A DNA stretch of 64,000 bases from Escherichia phage ST4 (OM982646); one strand, 5' to 3'. Positions 16,238-20,826 are shown, counted from the stretch's first letter. Notes: generated by a model from the letters alone, not told the origin. Numbers and translations: made by a program.

Positions 16238-16257
16238 TCCTTAAGCTGCGGAGCAGC
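16238..16257 (-). promoter_or_regulatory. N4-type virion-RNAP hairpin promoter candidate (copy 1)
   Basis: Plus strand ATCC-ttaa-GCTGC-GGA-GCAGC: 5-bp stem, GGA loop, ATCC 4 nt away; same architecture as the other three copies. Confidence 0.5.
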
Positions 16258-16258
16258 T

Positions 16259-16609
16259 TTAACTCCAATAGTTGTAAGCATCACCTAAGTGTTTACGCCA
16301 TGCTTCCGGTAACAGCACGTTGCCAGTCACATTAATGAACTGGTATGGGTCTAGGTAGTCATTACTCATGACTTTGAAATCCCACTGTGGATTAGCAGAT
16401 GCATAGGCAATAAAACCTTCAATGAAGCCATAAATAGCACCTTCTTTAATACGGTTACCATTGCCATCTCTTACTGGAATGGCAAAGCTATTACCATAAT
16501 GACCATAGGCCATACCCCAACGAGCACCGTGCTTCTTATAGGCTAACTTGGCAGCAGCATTGGTATGCTGACCTAATGTGTTGGTAGTGAATACGAATAT
16601 CTCTTTCAT
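16259..16609 (-). CDS. hypothetical protein with glycine-rich nucleotide-binding-like N-terminal motif
   Basis: 116 aa; FVFTTNTLGQHTNAAAKLA...GNSFAIP pattern. Confidence 0.45.
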   Translation of the reverse strand: MKEIFVFTTNTLGQHTNAAAKLAYKKHGARWGMAYGHYGNSFAIPVRDGNGNRIKEGAIYGFIEGFIAYASANPQWDFKVMSNDYLDPYQFINVTGNVLLPEAWRKHLGDAYNYWS

Positions 16610-16612
16610 TAG

Positions 16613-16993
16613 TTACCCTTTTGGATTTTCTACAAAGTAGTTATACATAGCTCGTACGAGCTTCTCTTTAATAACCTCACCATGACATGGCTTTGGATAG
16701 CAGAAGCACTGTAAGGCCAGACCTTTCTCGTCAATGGCTTTATTACCCAGACGATTAAGTTCATCCAGTACAACTGGATTACCTTTATCAATCTGTTCTT
16801 GCAGCCAGACCTTATACTTAGCAATTACTTGCTCTCTGGTTCCATGTTTACCAATGACGAATGGATTGCCTAACGGTGAACCACGTCCAATATACTCACC
16901 GGATTTACCGTGATGTTTATTAACAATGATAATTGGACGTGCAGATACACCCAGCAAAGCATTGGTGTTATCACCTAATGGAATAGTTTTCAC
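16613..16993 (-). CDS. DUF4326-like protein
   Basis: 126 aa; YIGRGSPLGNPF ... KYKVWL ... CFCYPKPCHG pattern. Confidence 0.45.
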   Translation of the reverse strand: MKTIPLGDNTNALLGVSARPIIIVNKHHGKSGEYIGRGSPLGNPFVIGKHGTREQVIAKYKVWLQEQIDKGNPVVLDELNRLGNKAIDEKGLALQCFCYPKPCHGEVIKEKLVRAMYNYFVENPKG

Positions 16994-17232
16994 GGTTTAA
17001 GTACCTCAATGGATGTAGTTACTTTGTATATAGAAGCTCCTTCTAATGCGTCTATTTTGTAAGCCATACCTCTTGTTAGCATTACTCCGTTCATTACTTT
17101 ATTAACCTCTTCTAGGTTAGGTACGGAAAATGCTTCATTTAATACAGGAGTTGTATGCCAATCTATGTAATCATCGGGCATAGCTATAAAATCATCTCCC
17201 TTTTTGAATACATAATATTCTTCATAGATCAT
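16990..17232 (-). CDS. hypothetical early protein (80 aa)
   Basis: 4-nt overlaps with both neighbours (translational coupling). Confidence 0.4.
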   Translation of the reverse strand: MIYEEYYVFKKGDDFIAMPDDYIDWHTTPVLNEAFSVPNLEEVNKVMNGVMLTRGMAYKIDALEGASIYKVTTSIEVLKP

Positions 17233-17543
17233 GGTTTTAGTACCTGGAATGCGAATACAGGACGTTTACTACGCCATTGGTTCATAGCCAGTTCACTAGC
17301 AGGAGAGCCATCATGTAAATCATATATGAATGTAATCATATACTCTGGTTCCTCTGGGAAGTTCTCTGTAGAGAATGGTAGACCTGCTTCCTTTAGTACA
17401 GAAACCAGTGGTGATTCTGGTTCACAGTAAATAATGAACTCTTCGTTGAATGCTTTACTAGTCTGAGATACATAATCAATATTACGCATCATCTTATCGA
17501 CGTCAGTAAAAGTATTATCATGTACTACTACAATATTATTCAT
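17229..17543 (-). CDS. hypothetical early protein (104 aa)
   Basis: 4-nt overlaps with neighbours. Confidence 0.4.
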   Translation of the reverse strand: MNNIVVVHDNTFTDVDKMMRNIDYVSQTSKAFNEEFIIYCEPESPLVSVLKEAGLPFSTENFPEEPEYMITFIYDLHDGSPASELAMNQWRSKRPVFAFQVLKP

Positions 17544-17722
17544 CTATATACCTTAAAGACTATTACGTCTTTTTCTGTTGATTCAATAACTTTCATTTTA
17601 TTTGAGGAATTGGCTTGTTTAAGTTCTTTCCTCATCTGTTCTAAAGTTGCATCATCTACATCTTTAAAACGAATGAATGCAATTTTTCCATCTTCATGGA
17701 ATAAGGTTTTTGTTTTATTCAT
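17540..17722 (-). CDS. hypothetical early protein (60 aa)
   Basis: 4-nt overlaps with neighbours. Confidence 0.35.
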   Translation of the reverse strand: MNKTKTLFHEDGKIAFIRFKDVDDATLEQMRKELKQANSSNKMKVIESTEKDVIVFKVYR

Positions 17723-18000
17723 GGTAGTAAAACCTCACTTAGTGTAGCTTCAATTTCATTAATAGCTGGGGCAAATCTACGGATGATACCTATTTGTTCC
17801 TGCTTACTATTTTTATACTTAGGTGGTATTTTCCATATACCAGTCTTAGTATATTTAGGTTTATGGCTGAAACCAATTAGAGCAGAACTCGAATGACCAT
17901 GCATCATTGGATATGCTGCTACATATTTAACCCATATTGGGACTTCAATAGTTTGTCCCATATAGTTAAATGATTTAGTTACAGGGAATGTAATAATCAC
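17719..18000 (-). CDS. hypothetical early protein (93 aa)
   Basis: 4-nt overlaps with neighbours. Confidence 0.4.
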   Translation of the reverse strand: MIITFPVTKSFNYMGQTIEVPIWVKYVAAYPMMHGHSSSALIGFSHKPKYTKTGIWKIPPKYKNSKQEQIGIIRRFAPAINEIEATLSEVLLP

Positions 18001-18218
18001 TTTTGGTATCCTTGTATATAGTTAATACGGCGAATACGCTGAGTAGATGCCTTAACAGCCATCTGTTGATTCTCTTCTTTGTGCTGATTATTTAACAACT
18101 TATCCCATTCTTCCTGGTTCCGTTGTTTCTGTAATATACGACTACAACGCTTATGATTGGCAACTCCACGTCCTTTCTTACAGACTGGGCAAATACCATA
18201 ATCGCTCGTGTACATCAT
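17997..18218 (-). CDS. zinc-ribbon-containing small protein (73 aa)
   Basis: CPVCKK ... HKRC cysteine/histidine cluster; 4-nt overlaps with neighbours. Confidence 0.4.
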   Translation of the reverse strand: MMYTSDYGICPVCKKGRGVANHKRCSRILQKQRNQEEWDKLLNNQHKEENQQMAVKASTQRIRRINYIQGYQK

Positions 18219-18523
18219 TGGCTTAAAGCCTCCATTAATATTTTACGAATAACGTTAACATCAGATTCAGTACCAATTAAACCAACAGGTTTCTTTGTAC
18301 TATCTGTGACAAAGGATGCAATCCTTTCCATCTCTGCTGTAATTAATTTGTCGCCACTAATAAGACGATTACGTAGGTAAGCCTCATAAGCTACCTCTAT
18401 ATCTTCTACTGTGGTTCTTTCATTACGAGTGAATGGATTACTTAATGGGAAGGGTAAATGTACCCGTATATTCCTGTCAGCTACTTTAGCTAAGTGAGGA
18501 AGTATACATACTATTTCATTCAA
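18215..18523 (-). CDS. hypothetical early protein (102 aa)
   Basis: 4-nt overlap with the downstream gene. Confidence 0.4.
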   Translation of the reverse strand: MNEIVCILPHLAKVADRNIRVHLPFPLSNPFTRNERTTVEDIEVAYEAYLRNRLISGDKLITAEMERIASFVTDSTKKPVGLIGTESDVNVIRKILMEALSQ

Positions 18524-18557
18524 GATTCTTTCTCCTATTTAAATACATATCTAACTA

Positions 18558-18598
18558 TTCAAGAATAAAAAATAGGAGCCTCCTATTGGAGGACTCCT
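18558..18598 (-). terminator. rho-independent terminator (minus strand)
   Basis: GC-rich hairpin ggagtcctcc / ggaggctcct followed by a T-run on the minus strand. Confidence 0.55.
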
Positions 18599-19726: not shown

Positions 19727-19732
19727 TTGATT

Positions 19733-19939
19733 TTAGATTGCTTCTTTACGAAACTCTCTACGTAATTTACGGATTTGTTTCTTGGTAGGCTTAGCAGGGA
19801 ATTCATACTGACTAACCAGAGGTTGTACAGATAGATTCTCTTCAGCAAATGTGAGTAACCAGTGGCTATGATAAGCCTGAGCGAATGAGCCATACTGAGG
19901 TTTGCTGTTGATAGTTTCCAGATATGTGATGAAACGCAT
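19733..19939 (-). CDS. hypothetical early protein (68 aa)
   Basis: GGAG RBS 8 nt upstream of the ATG; downstream of promoter copy 3. Confidence 0.45.
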   Translation of the reverse strand: MRFITYLETINSKPQYGSFAQAYHSHWLLTFAEENLSVQPLVSQYEFPAKPTKKQIRKLRREFRKEAI

Positions 19940-19966
19940 AGTTATATCTCCAATGGTTAAAGGATA

Positions 19967-19986
19967 TCCAATAGACGCGGAGCGTC
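19967..19986 (-). promoter_or_regulatory. N4-type virion-RNAP hairpin promoter candidate (copy 3)
   Basis: Plus strand ATCC-aata-GACGC-GGA-GCGTC: perfect 5-6 bp stem with GGA loop; closely resembles the N4 early promoter hairpin as I recall it. Confidence 0.55.
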
Positions 19987-19993
19987 TTGGTTT

Positions 19994-20353
19994 TTAAGAC
20001 AAGCGTTTAAGCAGCTCTGCTTTAGCAGATTCTTTCTCTTCAGTAGCTTTAGTGTGGTCAATATCTGACTCACCATACTCAAGGATGTCTCTTTCATATG
20101 TTGAAAGAACTTCTACTGAAGCTTCAAAACGTTCCAGTAGTTCTTCCTTATCCGGCTCTCCTTCACAGGATTCCCATTGCCATACATAACCAGTTAGTGG
20201 AACCAGTTCTCCTTTCTCAAAGTAAGGATTATTGTCCATATCCCTGACAGTAGAATCTTCGGTAAGACAGATACGTTTTCCTTCCAATTCTCCTTCGATA
20301 ATTGTTCCAACAGGTACGTCAGCAGAGCCTTTGATACAACGGAATTTAGTCAT
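19994..20353 (-). CDS. hypothetical acidic protein (119 aa)
   Basis: ORF. Confidence 0.45.
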   Translation of the reverse strand: MTKFRCIKGSADVPVGTIIEGELEGKRICLTEDSTVRDMDNNPYFEKGELVPLTGYVWQWESCEGEPDKEELLERFEASVEVLSTYERDILEYGESDIDHTKATEEKESAKAELLKRLS

Positions 20354-20407
20354 GATTTTCTATCTCCTAAAGTAGATAACTATCTACTTAGTTAAACTAT
20401 CTAATGT

Positions 20408-20436
20408 TTATAAAAGGAGACTCCGAAGAGCCTCCT
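20408..20436 (-). terminator. rho-independent terminator (minus strand)
   Basis: Hairpin aggagactc-cgaa-gagcctcct followed by tttat on the minus strand. Confidence 0.5.
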
Positions 20437-20444
20437 ATGTTGAT

Positions 20445-20768
20445 TTAGTCTTTAGTCAGGATGTCAATTACTTTGGAATATTCTGCGTTATAGATACGAG
20501 CGTTCTCAGAATCTTTGCAGAATTCTTCGATACTTTTCTTACGAAGAGTCTCGTTCATAGCTGTTTCCTCTGCCAGTTTATTAACAAAGGTATGCATTTC
20601 TAATTTAGTACGAATGGCTTGTTTCTCTGCCATCGTACTAACATATGAATTAAGCATACCTACTGCTTTAGTAGCAGTACCGAATGTATCTGCAACAGTA
20701 GTAGCAGCAGAGTTAACAGTACCCAGTAAAGTTCCTGCAGTCATACGTACAGTAGCGGTAGTAGTCAT
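20445..20768 (-). CDS. hypothetical protein (107 aa)
   Basis: GGAG RBS; first gene downstream of promoter copy 4. Confidence 0.45.
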   Translation of the reverse strand: MTTTATVRMTAGTLLGTVNSAATTVADTFGTATKAVGMLNSYVSTMAEKQAIRTKLEMHTFVNKLAEETAMNETLRKKSIEEFCKDSENARIYNAEYSKVIDILTKD

Positions 20769-20806
20769 GATGATAGCTCCAATAGTTGATGATAGGACGA
20801 CATGTC

Positions 20807-20826
20807 CATAACATGCGGAGCATGTG
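20807..20826 (-). promoter_or_regulatory. N4-type virion-RNAP hairpin promoter candidate (copy 4)
   Basis: Plus strand GTCC-ataa-CATGC-GGA-GCATG: 5-bp stem with GGA loop and upstream TCC. Confidence 0.5.

What the first reader, a model, noticed from the sequence alone, without database searches (positions are those of the whole stretch)
16238..20826. Four copies of an N4-type single-stranded hairpin promoter motif on the template strand of early genes
At 16238-16257, 19707-19726, 19967-19986 and 20807-20826 the plus strand carries (A/G)TCC, a 4-nt A/T spacer, a 5-bp stem, a GGA loop and the complementary stem (for example ATCC-aata-GACGC-GGA-GCGTC). This matches the architecture of N4 virion-RNAP early promoters as I recall them (template-strand hairpin with a 3-nt purine loop, transcript starting opposite the C of TCC). 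The purine loop is on the plus strand, which would be the template for the minus-strand genes directly downstream. Copy 2 has two stem mismatches and may be weaker.
Basis: partly seen in the sequence, partly recalled or inferred. Interest (0 to 1): 0.55.

Follow-up and report, generated by a model that had tools for sequence, protein, structure and literature searches.

The report
N4-type hairpin early promoters, one decayed

Summary
The motif is real. Three perfect copies lie on the + strand: c1 16237-16257, c3 19966-19986, c4 20804-20824. A fourth copy, c2 19706-19726, has two stem mismatches. Allowing loop GGA or GAA, the full motif (CC, 4 nt, NNNGC, loop, GCNNN with a perfect stem) occurs only at these three sites in 64 kb.

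The window is a G7C-like Gamaleyavirus (Schitoviridae), with early genes on the minus strand and the genome's left end near 20906-20911. By position, c4 corresponds to N4 P1 (before gp1), c2 to P2 (before gp2) and c1 to P3 (before the RNAPII genes; its 13-nt hairpin is identical to N4 P3). c3 is an extra promoter before a 68-aa DUF7279 gene. The related Klebsiella phage KP8 has already been described with four putative promoters.

All published determinants are present in c1, c3 and c4: G-G-A loop, -9C:-13G closing pair, -8G and +1C. The window's vRNAP keeps every base-contacting residue. In relatives the outer stem pairs covary and the GC-GGA-GC core is invariant.

c2 has lost the closing pair and is not predicted to fold, so it is probably inactive. 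gp2 would then be read from c3.

The hairpins also mark exact mosaic breakpoints between gene cassettes. Overall this is a new member of a known kind, of low interest.

The parts
20804..20824 (+). c4, the P1 orthologue. Template-strand hairpin promoter GTCC-ataa-CATGC-GGA-GCATG (6-bp stem, 20811-20825). Predicted +1 is C20807 and the loop centre (-11G) is 20818. It drives gp1 (20445-20768, minus strand) through a 39-nt leader with GGAG ahead of the ATG.
   Evidence: The 12-nt initiation flank acatgtccataa is identical to N4 P1 and to P1 of relatives. It lies about 90-100 nt from the genome's left end, as in N4 and G7C.
19966..19986 (+). c3, called Px here: an extra intact hairpin promoter ATCC-aata-GACGC-GGA-GCGTC (6-bp stem, 19973-19987). 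Predicted +1 is C19969 and -11G is 19980. It drives the 68-aa DUF7279 ORF (19733-19939, minus strand) and, by read-through, gp2.
   Evidence: Perfect counterparts occur at the same position in U1G, PE007, SP5M, PD205 and in IMG/VR contigs L010 and L011.
19706..19726 (+). c2, the positional P2 orthologue, 8 nt upstream of the gp2 start. Degenerate: ATCC-ataa-GACGA-GGA-GCATC, with -9A instead of C and a -7C:-15A mismatch. If it were active, +1 would be C19709.
   Evidence: no hairpin predicted. Nine related genomes have a perfect hairpin here. This exact sequence is absent from IMG/VR. The nearest record, PE007, is 95.6% identical over 90 nt (4 differences), and 3 of them fall within a 13-nt stretch in or just 3' of the hairpin.
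16237..16257 (+). c1, the P3 orthologue. ATCC-ttaa-GCTGC-GGA-GCAGC (7-bp stem, 16243-16259). Predicted +1 is C16240 and -11G is 16251. It drives a 77-aa ORF (15998-16231), then RNAP1 subunit B/gp15 (15159-15977), an HNH endonuclease (14576-15157) and RNAP2/gp16 (13357-14574), all on the minus strand.
   Evidence: The 13-nt hairpin is identical to N4 P3 at N4 4548-4560, upstream of RNAP1. The same promoter plus ORF is found in HK2 and 24-32N.
46216..56568 (+). Virion RNA polymerase gene (N4 gp50 homologue), the enzyme predicted to read these promoters.
   Evidence: matches N4 vRNAP structures with E = 0. K114, R119, W129, K849, K850, D901, R904 and the catalytic D559 and D951 are conserved; K267 is N.
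20411..20436 (-). Terminator-like hairpin after gp1: AGGAGGCUC-UUCG-GAGUCUCCU followed by a U-run. Probable end of the P1 transcription unit.
   Evidence: Read. The homologous site is annotated as a terminator in SP5M and is conserved in the alignment.
19183..19212 (-). Strong intrinsic terminator after gp2: GGACUACC-UUCG-GGUAGUCC followed by UUUUAUUUUU.
   Evidence: The homologous site is annotated as a terminator in PhAPEC7 and SP5M.
13315..13350 (-). Strong intrinsic terminator after RNAP2/gp16. Probable end of the P3 transcription unit.

Best explanation
c1, c3 and c4 are early promoters for the phage's virion-encapsidated RNA polymerase, of the type established for coliphage N4.

Inferred from N4 biochemistry, not tested here: after injection the DNA becomes negatively supercoiled by host gyrase and the inverted repeat extrudes. 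The template (+) strand hairpin, with its compact G-G-A loop closed by C:G, resists melting by E. coli SSB while the non-template hairpin is melted. vRNAP then binds the hairpin. W129 and R119 contact -11G, K114 contacts -10G, D901 contacts -9C/-10G, and R904 contacts -8G. Transcription starts with GTP opposite the C that lies eight nt downstream of -8: C20807, C19969 and C16240, giving RNAs that begin GGA.

The three predicted transcription units are:
- P1 -> gp1 -> terminator.
- Px -> DUF7279 ORF -> gp2 -> terminator.
- P3 -> 77-aa ORF -> RNAP1-B -> HNH endonuclease -> RNAP2 -> terminator.

Together these supply gp1, gp2 and the RNAPII subunits needed for middle transcription.

c2 is the ancestral P2. 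It has lost the loop-closing pair and one further stem pair and is probably inactive. Its job has been taken over by the intact Px 260 nt upstream.
For: Shown here:
1. The window is a Gamaleyavirus with N4 gene order.
2. The full motif occurs only at these sites and only on the template strand of the early genes.
3. N4's P1, P2 and P3, recovered from the N4 record by the same scan, lie before gp1, gp2 and RNAP1. They share the GC-G(G/A)A-GC core, the CC at +1/+2 and the A/T spacer. N4 P3's hairpin is identical to c1.
4. The literature rules are each met by c1, c3 and c4: hairpin, -12A/-10G, closing C:G, -11 purine, -8G, +1C (PMC4496689).
5. All base-specific promoter-contact residues of N4 mini-vRNAP are conserved in the window's vRNAP.
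6. In 38 distinct promoter sequences from the window, N4, G7C, PhAPEC7, U1G, PE007, SP5M, PD205 and IMG/VR contigs, 98.4% of stem cells pair. The three outer pairs covary (36 cells changed on both sides; 0 of 500 shuffles reach this). The two inner pairs never take any other pair type, their single departure being c2's unpaired -9A:-13G, and slid registers collapse to 15-55% paired.
7. In 2.9 million viral contigs, TCCATAA-N3-GCGGAGC hits 97 sites. Of these, 22 are perfect hairpins against about 1.5 expected, and the perfect ones come almost only from contigs of about 70-77 kb, the size of N4-like genomes. The other 75 hits show the random mismatch distribution.
8. SD-like GGAG lies ahead of gp1 and of the 68-aa ORF, and terminators follow gp1, gp2 and gp16.

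For c2 being defective: no hairpin is predicted, the closing pair is required according to the review, and all relatives examined have a perfect hairpin at this position.
Against: - No transcript or biochemical data exist for this genome. The start sites, and the dependence on gyrase and SSB, are transferred from N4.
- The -1 to -4 spacer is ttaa, aata or ataa rather than N4 P2/P3's aaaa. N4 P1 itself has ataa, and the structure shows no base contacts there.
- K267 of the beta-intercalating hairpin is N here.
- c4's fold energy alone is not exceptional (z = -1.16).
- The promoter alignment was partly selected through the 7-nt core, so only the three outer pairs are an independent test.
- c2's inactivity is inferred. 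A sequencing error cannot be excluded. ssDNA in vitro templates tolerate some changes that supercoiled DNA does not.
Confidence: 0.9

Rival explanations
1. c2 is still a working, merely weaker, vRNAP promoter. gp2 would then have its own start at C19709, as in N4.
For: c2 keeps the G-G-A loop, -8G, +1C, the spacer and the exact P2 position 8 nt before the gp2 ATG. Three of five stem positions can still pair. vRNAP recognises -11, -10, -8 and +1, and all four are present.
Against: The loop-closing C:G pair is reported as required for extrusion and hairpin stability, and -9C is contacted by D901. The predicted fold is open, at -0.6 kcal/mol and no better than shuffles. The substitutions cluster in the hairpin while the flanks are conserved. 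An intact Px lies 260 nt upstream, and no terminator was called in the short Px-gp2 interval.
Confidence: 0.2
2. The hairpins are intrinsic terminators, or RNA-level stem-loops, rather than DNA promoters.
For: On the + strand c3 is followed by TTGGTTTTT and was picked up by the terminator scan. Every inverted repeat also forms an RNA hairpin in read-through transcripts.
Against: - No + strand genes converge on these sites.
- Only c3 has a T-run.
- In the sense RNA the hairpins are not followed by U-runs.
- The genuine terminators nearby are different, longer UUCG-loop hairpins.
- The invariant GC-GGA-GC core, the fixed CC eight nt from -8 and the fixed strand match promoter rules, not terminator rules.
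Confidence: 0.02
3. The repeats are chiefly recombination or cassette-boundary sequences, like attC sites or the boundary sequences of phage morons, and their promoter-like appearance is secondary.
For: Homology between genomes breaks exactly at the P3 hairpin, and all four combinations of upstream and downstream flanks exist. PhAPEC7 looks like a Px/P2 recombinant that has lost the cassette between them.
Against: Recombination at short conserved repeats is expected for any conserved promoter and does not replace the promoter function. The same sequences are experimentally proven promoters in N4. No recombinase specific to these sites is evident.
Confidence: 0.03
4. The matches are chance inverted repeats.
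For: One further perfect GGA-loop hairpin (22794-22806) exists that does not fit the promoter rules. About two such hairpins are expected by chance in 128 kb of both strands.
Against: Three perfect copies carry the full extended motif, on one strand, at gene starts, and are conserved with covariation in relatives.
Confidence: 0.005

Closest known systems
Coliphage N4 virion-RNAP early promoters P1, P2 and P3 (Haynes and Rothman-Denes; Glucksmann et al. 1992; Dai and Rothman-Denes 1998; Davydova et al. 2007; Gleghorn et al. 2008; reviewed in PMC4496689)
   Same: - Template-strand hairpin with a 5-7 bp stem and a G-R-A loop.
- Invariant GC-GGA-GC heptamer centred at -11, with -8G.
- +1C eight nt from -8.
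- Positions before gp1, gp2 and the RNAPII genes, in the leftmost part of the genome.
- Cognate vRNAP with the same contact residues.
- c1's hairpin equals the N4 P3 hairpin, and c4's initiation flank equals that of N4 P1.
   Different: - Four sites instead of three.
- The P2-position copy is degenerate.
- P1's loop is GGA here and GAA in N4.
- The spacer is ttaa, aata or ataa, against aaaa in N4 P2 and P3.
- P3 is separated from RNAP1 by an extra 77-aa ORF.
- There is no experimental evidence for this genome.
Putative P1-P4 of Klebsiella N4-like phage KP8 (PMC6950046, Table 1)
   Same: Four predicted hairpin promoters with the same layout: before ORF1, before a small ORF between gp1 and gp2, before the gp2 homologue, and before RNAP1-B. 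KP8 P2 (AAGACGCTCCGCGTCTTATGGA) has the same hairpin as c3.
   Different: In KP8 all four are intact. The host and genus differ. Those promoters too are predictions only.
Early hairpin promoters of Pseudomonas phage LUZ7 (PMC3715699; start sites mapped by ONT-cappable-seq, PMC9163698)
   Same: vRNAP-dependent early promoters with a 3-nt loop, a G start, more than three per genome, and tandem arrangements.
   Different: LUZ7 stems may be 4 bp or longer, the start lies 13-14 nt from the hairpin centre, the sequences differ, and the relationship is much more distant.

Membership tests
N4-type vRNAP early (hairpin) promoter | Inverted repeat on the template strand able to form a hairpin with a 5-7 bp stem and a 3-nt loop | tested here: met
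   c1, c3 and c4 form 7-, 6- and 6-bp stems at -6.4, -6.9 and -4.7 kcal/mol. c2 does not meet this feature: two mismatches and no hairpin predicted.
N4-type vRNAP early (hairpin) promoter | Loop 5'-G(-10), purine(-11), A(-12)-3' on the template strand | tested here: met
   The loop is GGA in all four copies. The rule is taken from PMC4496689.
N4-type vRNAP early (hairpin) promoter | Loop-closing pair -9C:-13G, required for extrusion and stability | tested here: met
   Met in c1, c3 and c4. Not met in c2, which has A opposite G.
N4-type vRNAP early (hairpin) promoter | -8G in the stem, contacted by R904 | tested here: met
   G in all four copies and invariant in all 38 aligned promoters.
N4-type vRNAP early (hairpin) promoter | +1C eight nt downstream of -8, preceded by a 4-nt A/T-rich spacer | tested here: met
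   CC followed by W4 in all four copies. The C at +2 is invariant and the C at +1 is conserved in at least 90% of the aligned promoters in A1.
N4-type vRNAP early (hairpin) promoter | [quoted passage not shown] | tested here: met
   The left end is near 20906-20911. The copies lie about 0.1, 0.9, 1.2 and 4.7 kb from it, before the gp1, DUF7279, gp2 and RNAP1 homologues.
N4-type vRNAP early (hairpin) promoter | Genome encodes a vRNAP with the promoter-recognition residues | tested here: met
   K114, R119, W129, K849, K850, D901 and R904 are conserved. K267 is N.
N4-type vRNAP early (hairpin) promoter | [quoted passage not shown] | tested here: met
   The three outer pairs covary (GC/CG/AU; AU/CG/UA/GC; UA/CG/AU) with 98.4% pairing, and 0 of 500 shuffles reach the observed value.
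N4-type vRNAP early (hairpin) promoter | Rifampicin-resistant initiation by vRNAP at +1, dependent on supercoiling (gyrase) and E. coli SSB | not testable with these tools
   Needs 5'-end mapping, in vitro transcription and structure probing.

The most novel reading that the evidence does not exclude
The hairpin promoters double as the recombination joints of the early region, and tandem promoters are redundant and decay reciprocally.

- Small early-gene cassettes are gained, lost and swapped by exchange within the ~13-25 nt conserved promoter. All four flank combinations exist at P3, and PhAPEC7 looks like a Px/P2 deletion recombinant.
- The window keeps Px and has lost P2, with three clustered substitutions in or next to the hairpin. 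IME11 keeps P2 and has a -9C>T change in Px. Four relatives keep both.
Probability: 0.5. Interest if true: 0.3.

Novelty: new member of a known kind. Interest (0 to 1): 0.18.

Why it matters
It allows a confident annotation of the early transcription units of this Gamaleyavirus: three predicted start sites, with GGA-initiated RNAs and their terminators. It also shows that N4 promoter grammar, and the polymerase residues that read it, carry over unchanged to the G7C group.

The only mildly new points are evolutionary. The P2-position promoter is naturally broken here and is backed up by an upstream duplicate. Mosaic breakpoints fall exactly on the promoter hairpins. A natural -9C>A plus -15G>A variant would be a cheap test of the published requirement for the closing pair.

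Tried and rejected
It was replaced by TCCATAANNNGCGGAGC.
- The primary papers PMC317147 and PMC1855362 are not held. The rules were taken from the review PMC4496689.
- The fifth perfect GGA-loop hairpin, at 22794-22806 (CCTAC-GGA-GTAGG), was considered as a fifth promoter and rejected. It has -8A instead of G, a T at the +1 position and no CC-W4, and its fold is no better than shuffles (z = +0.41). It is conserved together with its flanks in three IMG/VR contigs, which says nothing either way.
- An Rfam scan of 13000-24000 gave only sub-threshold chance hits.
- The + strand terminator reading was rejected (see rival explanations).
- The exact c2 sequence was searched for in IMG/VR and in GenBank phages to see whether the degenerate form is shared. 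It is not.

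
Full report
**Observation**

The four sites exist as described.

| copy | + strand sequence | coordinates |
|---|---|---|
| c1 | ATCC-ttaa-GCTGC-GGA-GCAGC | 16237-16257 |
| c2 | ATCC-ataa-GACGA-GGA-GCATC | 19706-19726 |
| c3 | ATCC-aata-GACGC-GGA-GCGTC | 19966-19986 |
| c4 | GTCC-ataa-CATGC-GGA-GCATG | 20804-20824 |

- The loose pattern TCC-W4-N5-GGA occurs 8 times against 2.09 +/- 1.54 in shuffles.
- The stricter core GCG-N-AGC occurs nine times on both strands of the window. 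Only three of these are perfect 5-bp hairpins, and they are c1, c3 and c4. All three are on the + strand at the starts of minus-strand ORFs.
- As single-stranded DNA, c1, c3 and c4 fold into 7-, 6- and 6-bp stems (-6.4, -6.9 and -4.7 kcal/mol).
- c2 is not predicted to fold (-0.6 kcal/mol, centroid open).

**What the window is**

- Megablast places the region in the G7C-like phages (Gamaleyavirus, Enquatrovirinae, Schitoviridae) at about 86-93% identity over the matched parts of the best-ranked records, 57-71% of the query.
- The G7C and PhAPEC7 annotations and PHROG/Pfam scans identify these minus-strand genes:
  - gp1: 20445-20768
  - a 119-aa ORF: 19994-20353
  - a 68-aa DUF7279 ORF: 19733-19939
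  - gp2: 19222-19698
  - a 77-aa ORF: 15998-16231
  - RNAP1-B/gp15: 15159-15977
  - an HNH endonuclease: 14576-15157
  - RNAP2/gp16: 13357-14574
- G7C position 6 aligns with window 20906, so the physical left end lies near 20906-20911. Beyond it the window continues into right-end sequence (Mimir124 record end with an annotated DTR). The contig therefore runs through a collapsed terminal repeat.
- The vRNAP gene is at 46216-56568 on the + strand.

**Comparison with N4 itself**

Scanning the N4 record (EF056009) with the same hairpin rule recovers three sites on the template strand.

| N4 hairpin | sequence | upstream of |
|---|---|---|
| 90-102 | GTCC-ataa-GTTGC-GAA-GCAAC | gp1 |
| 559-571 | ATCC-aaaa-GAAGC-GGA-GCTTC | gp2 |
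| 4548-4560 | TACC-aaaa-GCTGC-GGA-GCAGC | RNAP1 |

- By position and sequence, c4 = P1, c2 = P2 and c1 = P3. The c1 hairpin is identical to that of N4 P3.
- c3 is an additional promoter, called Px here.

**Published determinants**

The review gives these rules:
- vRNAP recognises -11A/G, -10G, -8G and +1C.
- W129 stacks on -11G. K114 contacts -10G and R119 contacts -11G.
- D901 contacts -9C/-10G and R904 contacts -8G.
- K849 and K850 contact the backbone.
- The four A's act as a ruler, so that transcription starts eight nt downstream of -8.

Mapped onto the + strand (the template) read 5'->3', the motif is +1C, -1..-4 (W4), -5..-9 (NNNGC), -10G, -11G, -12A, -13..-17 (GCNNN).

- c1, c3 and c4 satisfy every rule.
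- c2 has -9A, so the closing pair is lost, and it also has a -7C:-15A mismatch.
- Predicted start sites are C16240, C19969 and C20807 (C19709 for c2). The RNAs would begin GGA.

**The polymerase**

The window's vRNAP aligns with N4 gp50 at 67% identity overall and 71% in the mini-vRNAP domain. Numbering from residue 998 reproduces all the published residue identities in N4. In the window K114, R119, W129, K849, K850, D901 and R904 are conserved, as are the catalytic D559 and D951 and Y678. Only K267 of the beta-intercalating hairpin is changed, to N. The same promoter specificity is therefore expected.

**Conservation and covariation**

- Relatives carry perfect hairpins at the P1, P2 and P3 positions wherever the region is covered. 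Those examined were G7C, PhAPEC7, IME11, ECBP1, pSb-1, U1G, PE007, SP5M, PD205 and four metagenomic contigs. The one exception is PD205 P1, which has a single stem mismatch. Several also have Px.
- In an alignment of 38 distinct promoter sequences (A1), the core G-C-G-G-A-G-C and the C at +2 are invariant or nearly so.
- The three outer stem pairs take several Watson-Crick types. Overall 98.4% of cells are paired, and 36 cells are changed on both sides against 9.0 +/- 2.1 in shuffles (0 of 500 reach this). Sliding the 3' arm drops pairing to 15-55%.
- Caveat: most sequences were collected through the 7-nt core, so only the three outer pairs are an independent test.

**Specificity outside the family**

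- TCCATAA-N3-GCGGAGC matches 97 sites in 2.9 million IMG/VR contigs.
- 22 of these are perfect hairpins, against about 1.5 expected. Almost all sit in contigs of about 70-77 kb with N4-like flanks.
- The remaining 75 have the mismatch distribution expected at random: 7, 33 and 35 sites with 1, 2 and 3 mismatches.

**Transcription units (inferred)**

- P1: a 39-nt leader with GGAG, then gp1, then a UUCG-loop terminator at 20436-20411 (annotated as a terminator in SP5M).
- Px: a 30-nt leader with GGAG, then the DUF7279 ORF, then gp2, then the terminator at 19212-19183.
- P3: a 9-nt leader, then the 77-aa ORF, RNAP1-B, HNH, RNAP2 and the terminator at 13350-13315.
- How the 119-aa ORF (19994-20353) and the genes between 16259 and 19080 are transcribed was not resolved. 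Read-through or middle promoters are possible.

**The degenerate copy**

- c2 differs from its closest database counterpart (PE007, 95.6% over 90 nt, perfect hairpin) at four positions.
- Three of these lie within a 13-nt stretch in or just 3' of the hairpin: C>A at -9, G>A at -15, and G>A 3 nt beyond the 3' arm, at about -20.
- The exact c2 sequence is absent from IMG/VR.
- Its 3' arm GCATC equals that of SP5M P2 (GATGC/GCATC), so the -7:-15 mismatch could be a half-completed compensatory change.
- The alignment shows the reciprocal situation in IME11. There Px reads AGATGT-GGA-GCATCT (-9C>T) while P2 is perfect. SP5M, U1G, PE007 and PD205 keep both.
- I estimate about a 0.7-0.8 probability that c2 is inactive or nearly so.

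**Mosaicism at the hairpins**

Alignments were anchored on the P3 hairpin.
- Window against pSb-1: about 93% identical on the upstream side and unrelated on the downstream side.
- Window against 24-32N: the reverse pattern.
- HK2 matches the window on both sides. PhAPEC7 matches on neither.
- All four flank combinations therefore exist, and the breakpoints coincide with the 13-15 nt hairpin.
- Likewise PhAPEC7 joins the upstream flank of Px directly to the leader of gp2. This is what recombination between the directly repeated Px and P2 would produce.
- This is consistent with promoter hairpins acting as short homology patches for cassette exchange. It is an inference from a handful of genomes.

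**What is already known**

- Hairpin promoters for vRNAP are textbook N4 biology.
- Three were predicted in LUZ7, LIT1 and PEV2 (PMC3715699).
- Nine early start sites, most of them hairpins, were mapped in LUZ7 (PMC9163698).
- Four putative promoters with exactly this layout were tabulated for the Klebsiella phage KP8 (PMC6950046).
- I found no held paper that lists them for G7C-group phages, and the G7C, PhAPEC7 and SP5M records annotate none.

**Verdict**

The sites are orthologues of N4 P1-P3 plus one extra copy, in a new member of a known family. The one refinement is that the P2-position copy is probably a relic. Interest is low.

Noticed in passing
window 22690-22880 (hairpin 22794-22806 on +; terminator-like 22737-22712 on -): In the intergenic region near the genome's right end there is a fifth perfect GGA-loop hairpin, CCTAC-GGA-GTAGG. 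It fails the promoter rules (-8A, no +1C). On the minus strand it is followed about 60 nt later by a strong G+C-rich terminator-like hairpin with a U-run, just upstream of ORF 22287-22685. The hairpin and its immediate flanks are identical in three IMG/VR contigs. There is no Rfam match. It could be a small structured RNA or a leader.
   Followed up: partly
window 20830-20930: The window runs through the junction of the physical genome ends. G7C position 6 aligns with window 20906, and the sequence beyond matches the right ends of related records that carry an annotated short DTR. The contig is therefore a circular permutation with the terminal repeat collapsed. P1 probably lies inside the repeat, as in N4. 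A G7 run sits at 20873-20879.
   Followed up: partly
window 20370-20389 (minus-strand sense): A perfect 9-bp palindrome, AAGTAGATA-gt-TATCTACTT, lies between the gp1 terminator and the SD of the 119-aa ORF. It is conserved in IME11, SP5M and PhAPEC7, with only the 2-nt centre varying (gt or ac). It may be an operator or a middle-promoter element. Function unknown.
   Followed up: no
L005 (IME11), Px position, seen in the alignment: IME11 carries a Px copy with -9C>T (AGATGT-GGA-GCATCT) while its P2 is perfect. This is the reciprocal of the window's state and suggests that tandem early promoters are redundant.
   Followed up: partly
window 16233-16330 and loci L013, L018, L019, L002: Homology between genomes switches on or off exactly at the P3 hairpin. 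All four combinations of upstream and downstream flanks exist among the window, HK2, pSb-1, 24-32N and PhAPEC7.
   Followed up: partly
window 14576-15157 (-): A homing-endonuclease-type gene (PHROG endonuclease VII/HNH matches; Pfam NUMOD1) is inserted between the two RNAPII subunit genes gp15 and gp16, as in G7C (ORF15.1). It is absent in N4 and PhAPEC7.
   Followed up: no
window 13000-23500: Sigma-70-like promoter matches are strongly depleted: 10 found against 31.4 +/- 5.8 in shuffles. This is consistent with an early/middle region that avoids host-RNAP promoters.
   Followed up: no
window 57670-57829 (-): ARAGORN calls two adjacent tRNA-like genes: tRNA-Ile(aat) and one with an abnormal anticodon loop.
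   Followed up: no
window vRNAP residue 1232 (N4 mini-vRNAP K267): The first of the two lysines of the beta-intercalating hairpin, which melt the base of long stems in N4, is asparagine here. All base-contacting residues are conserved.
   Followed up: no
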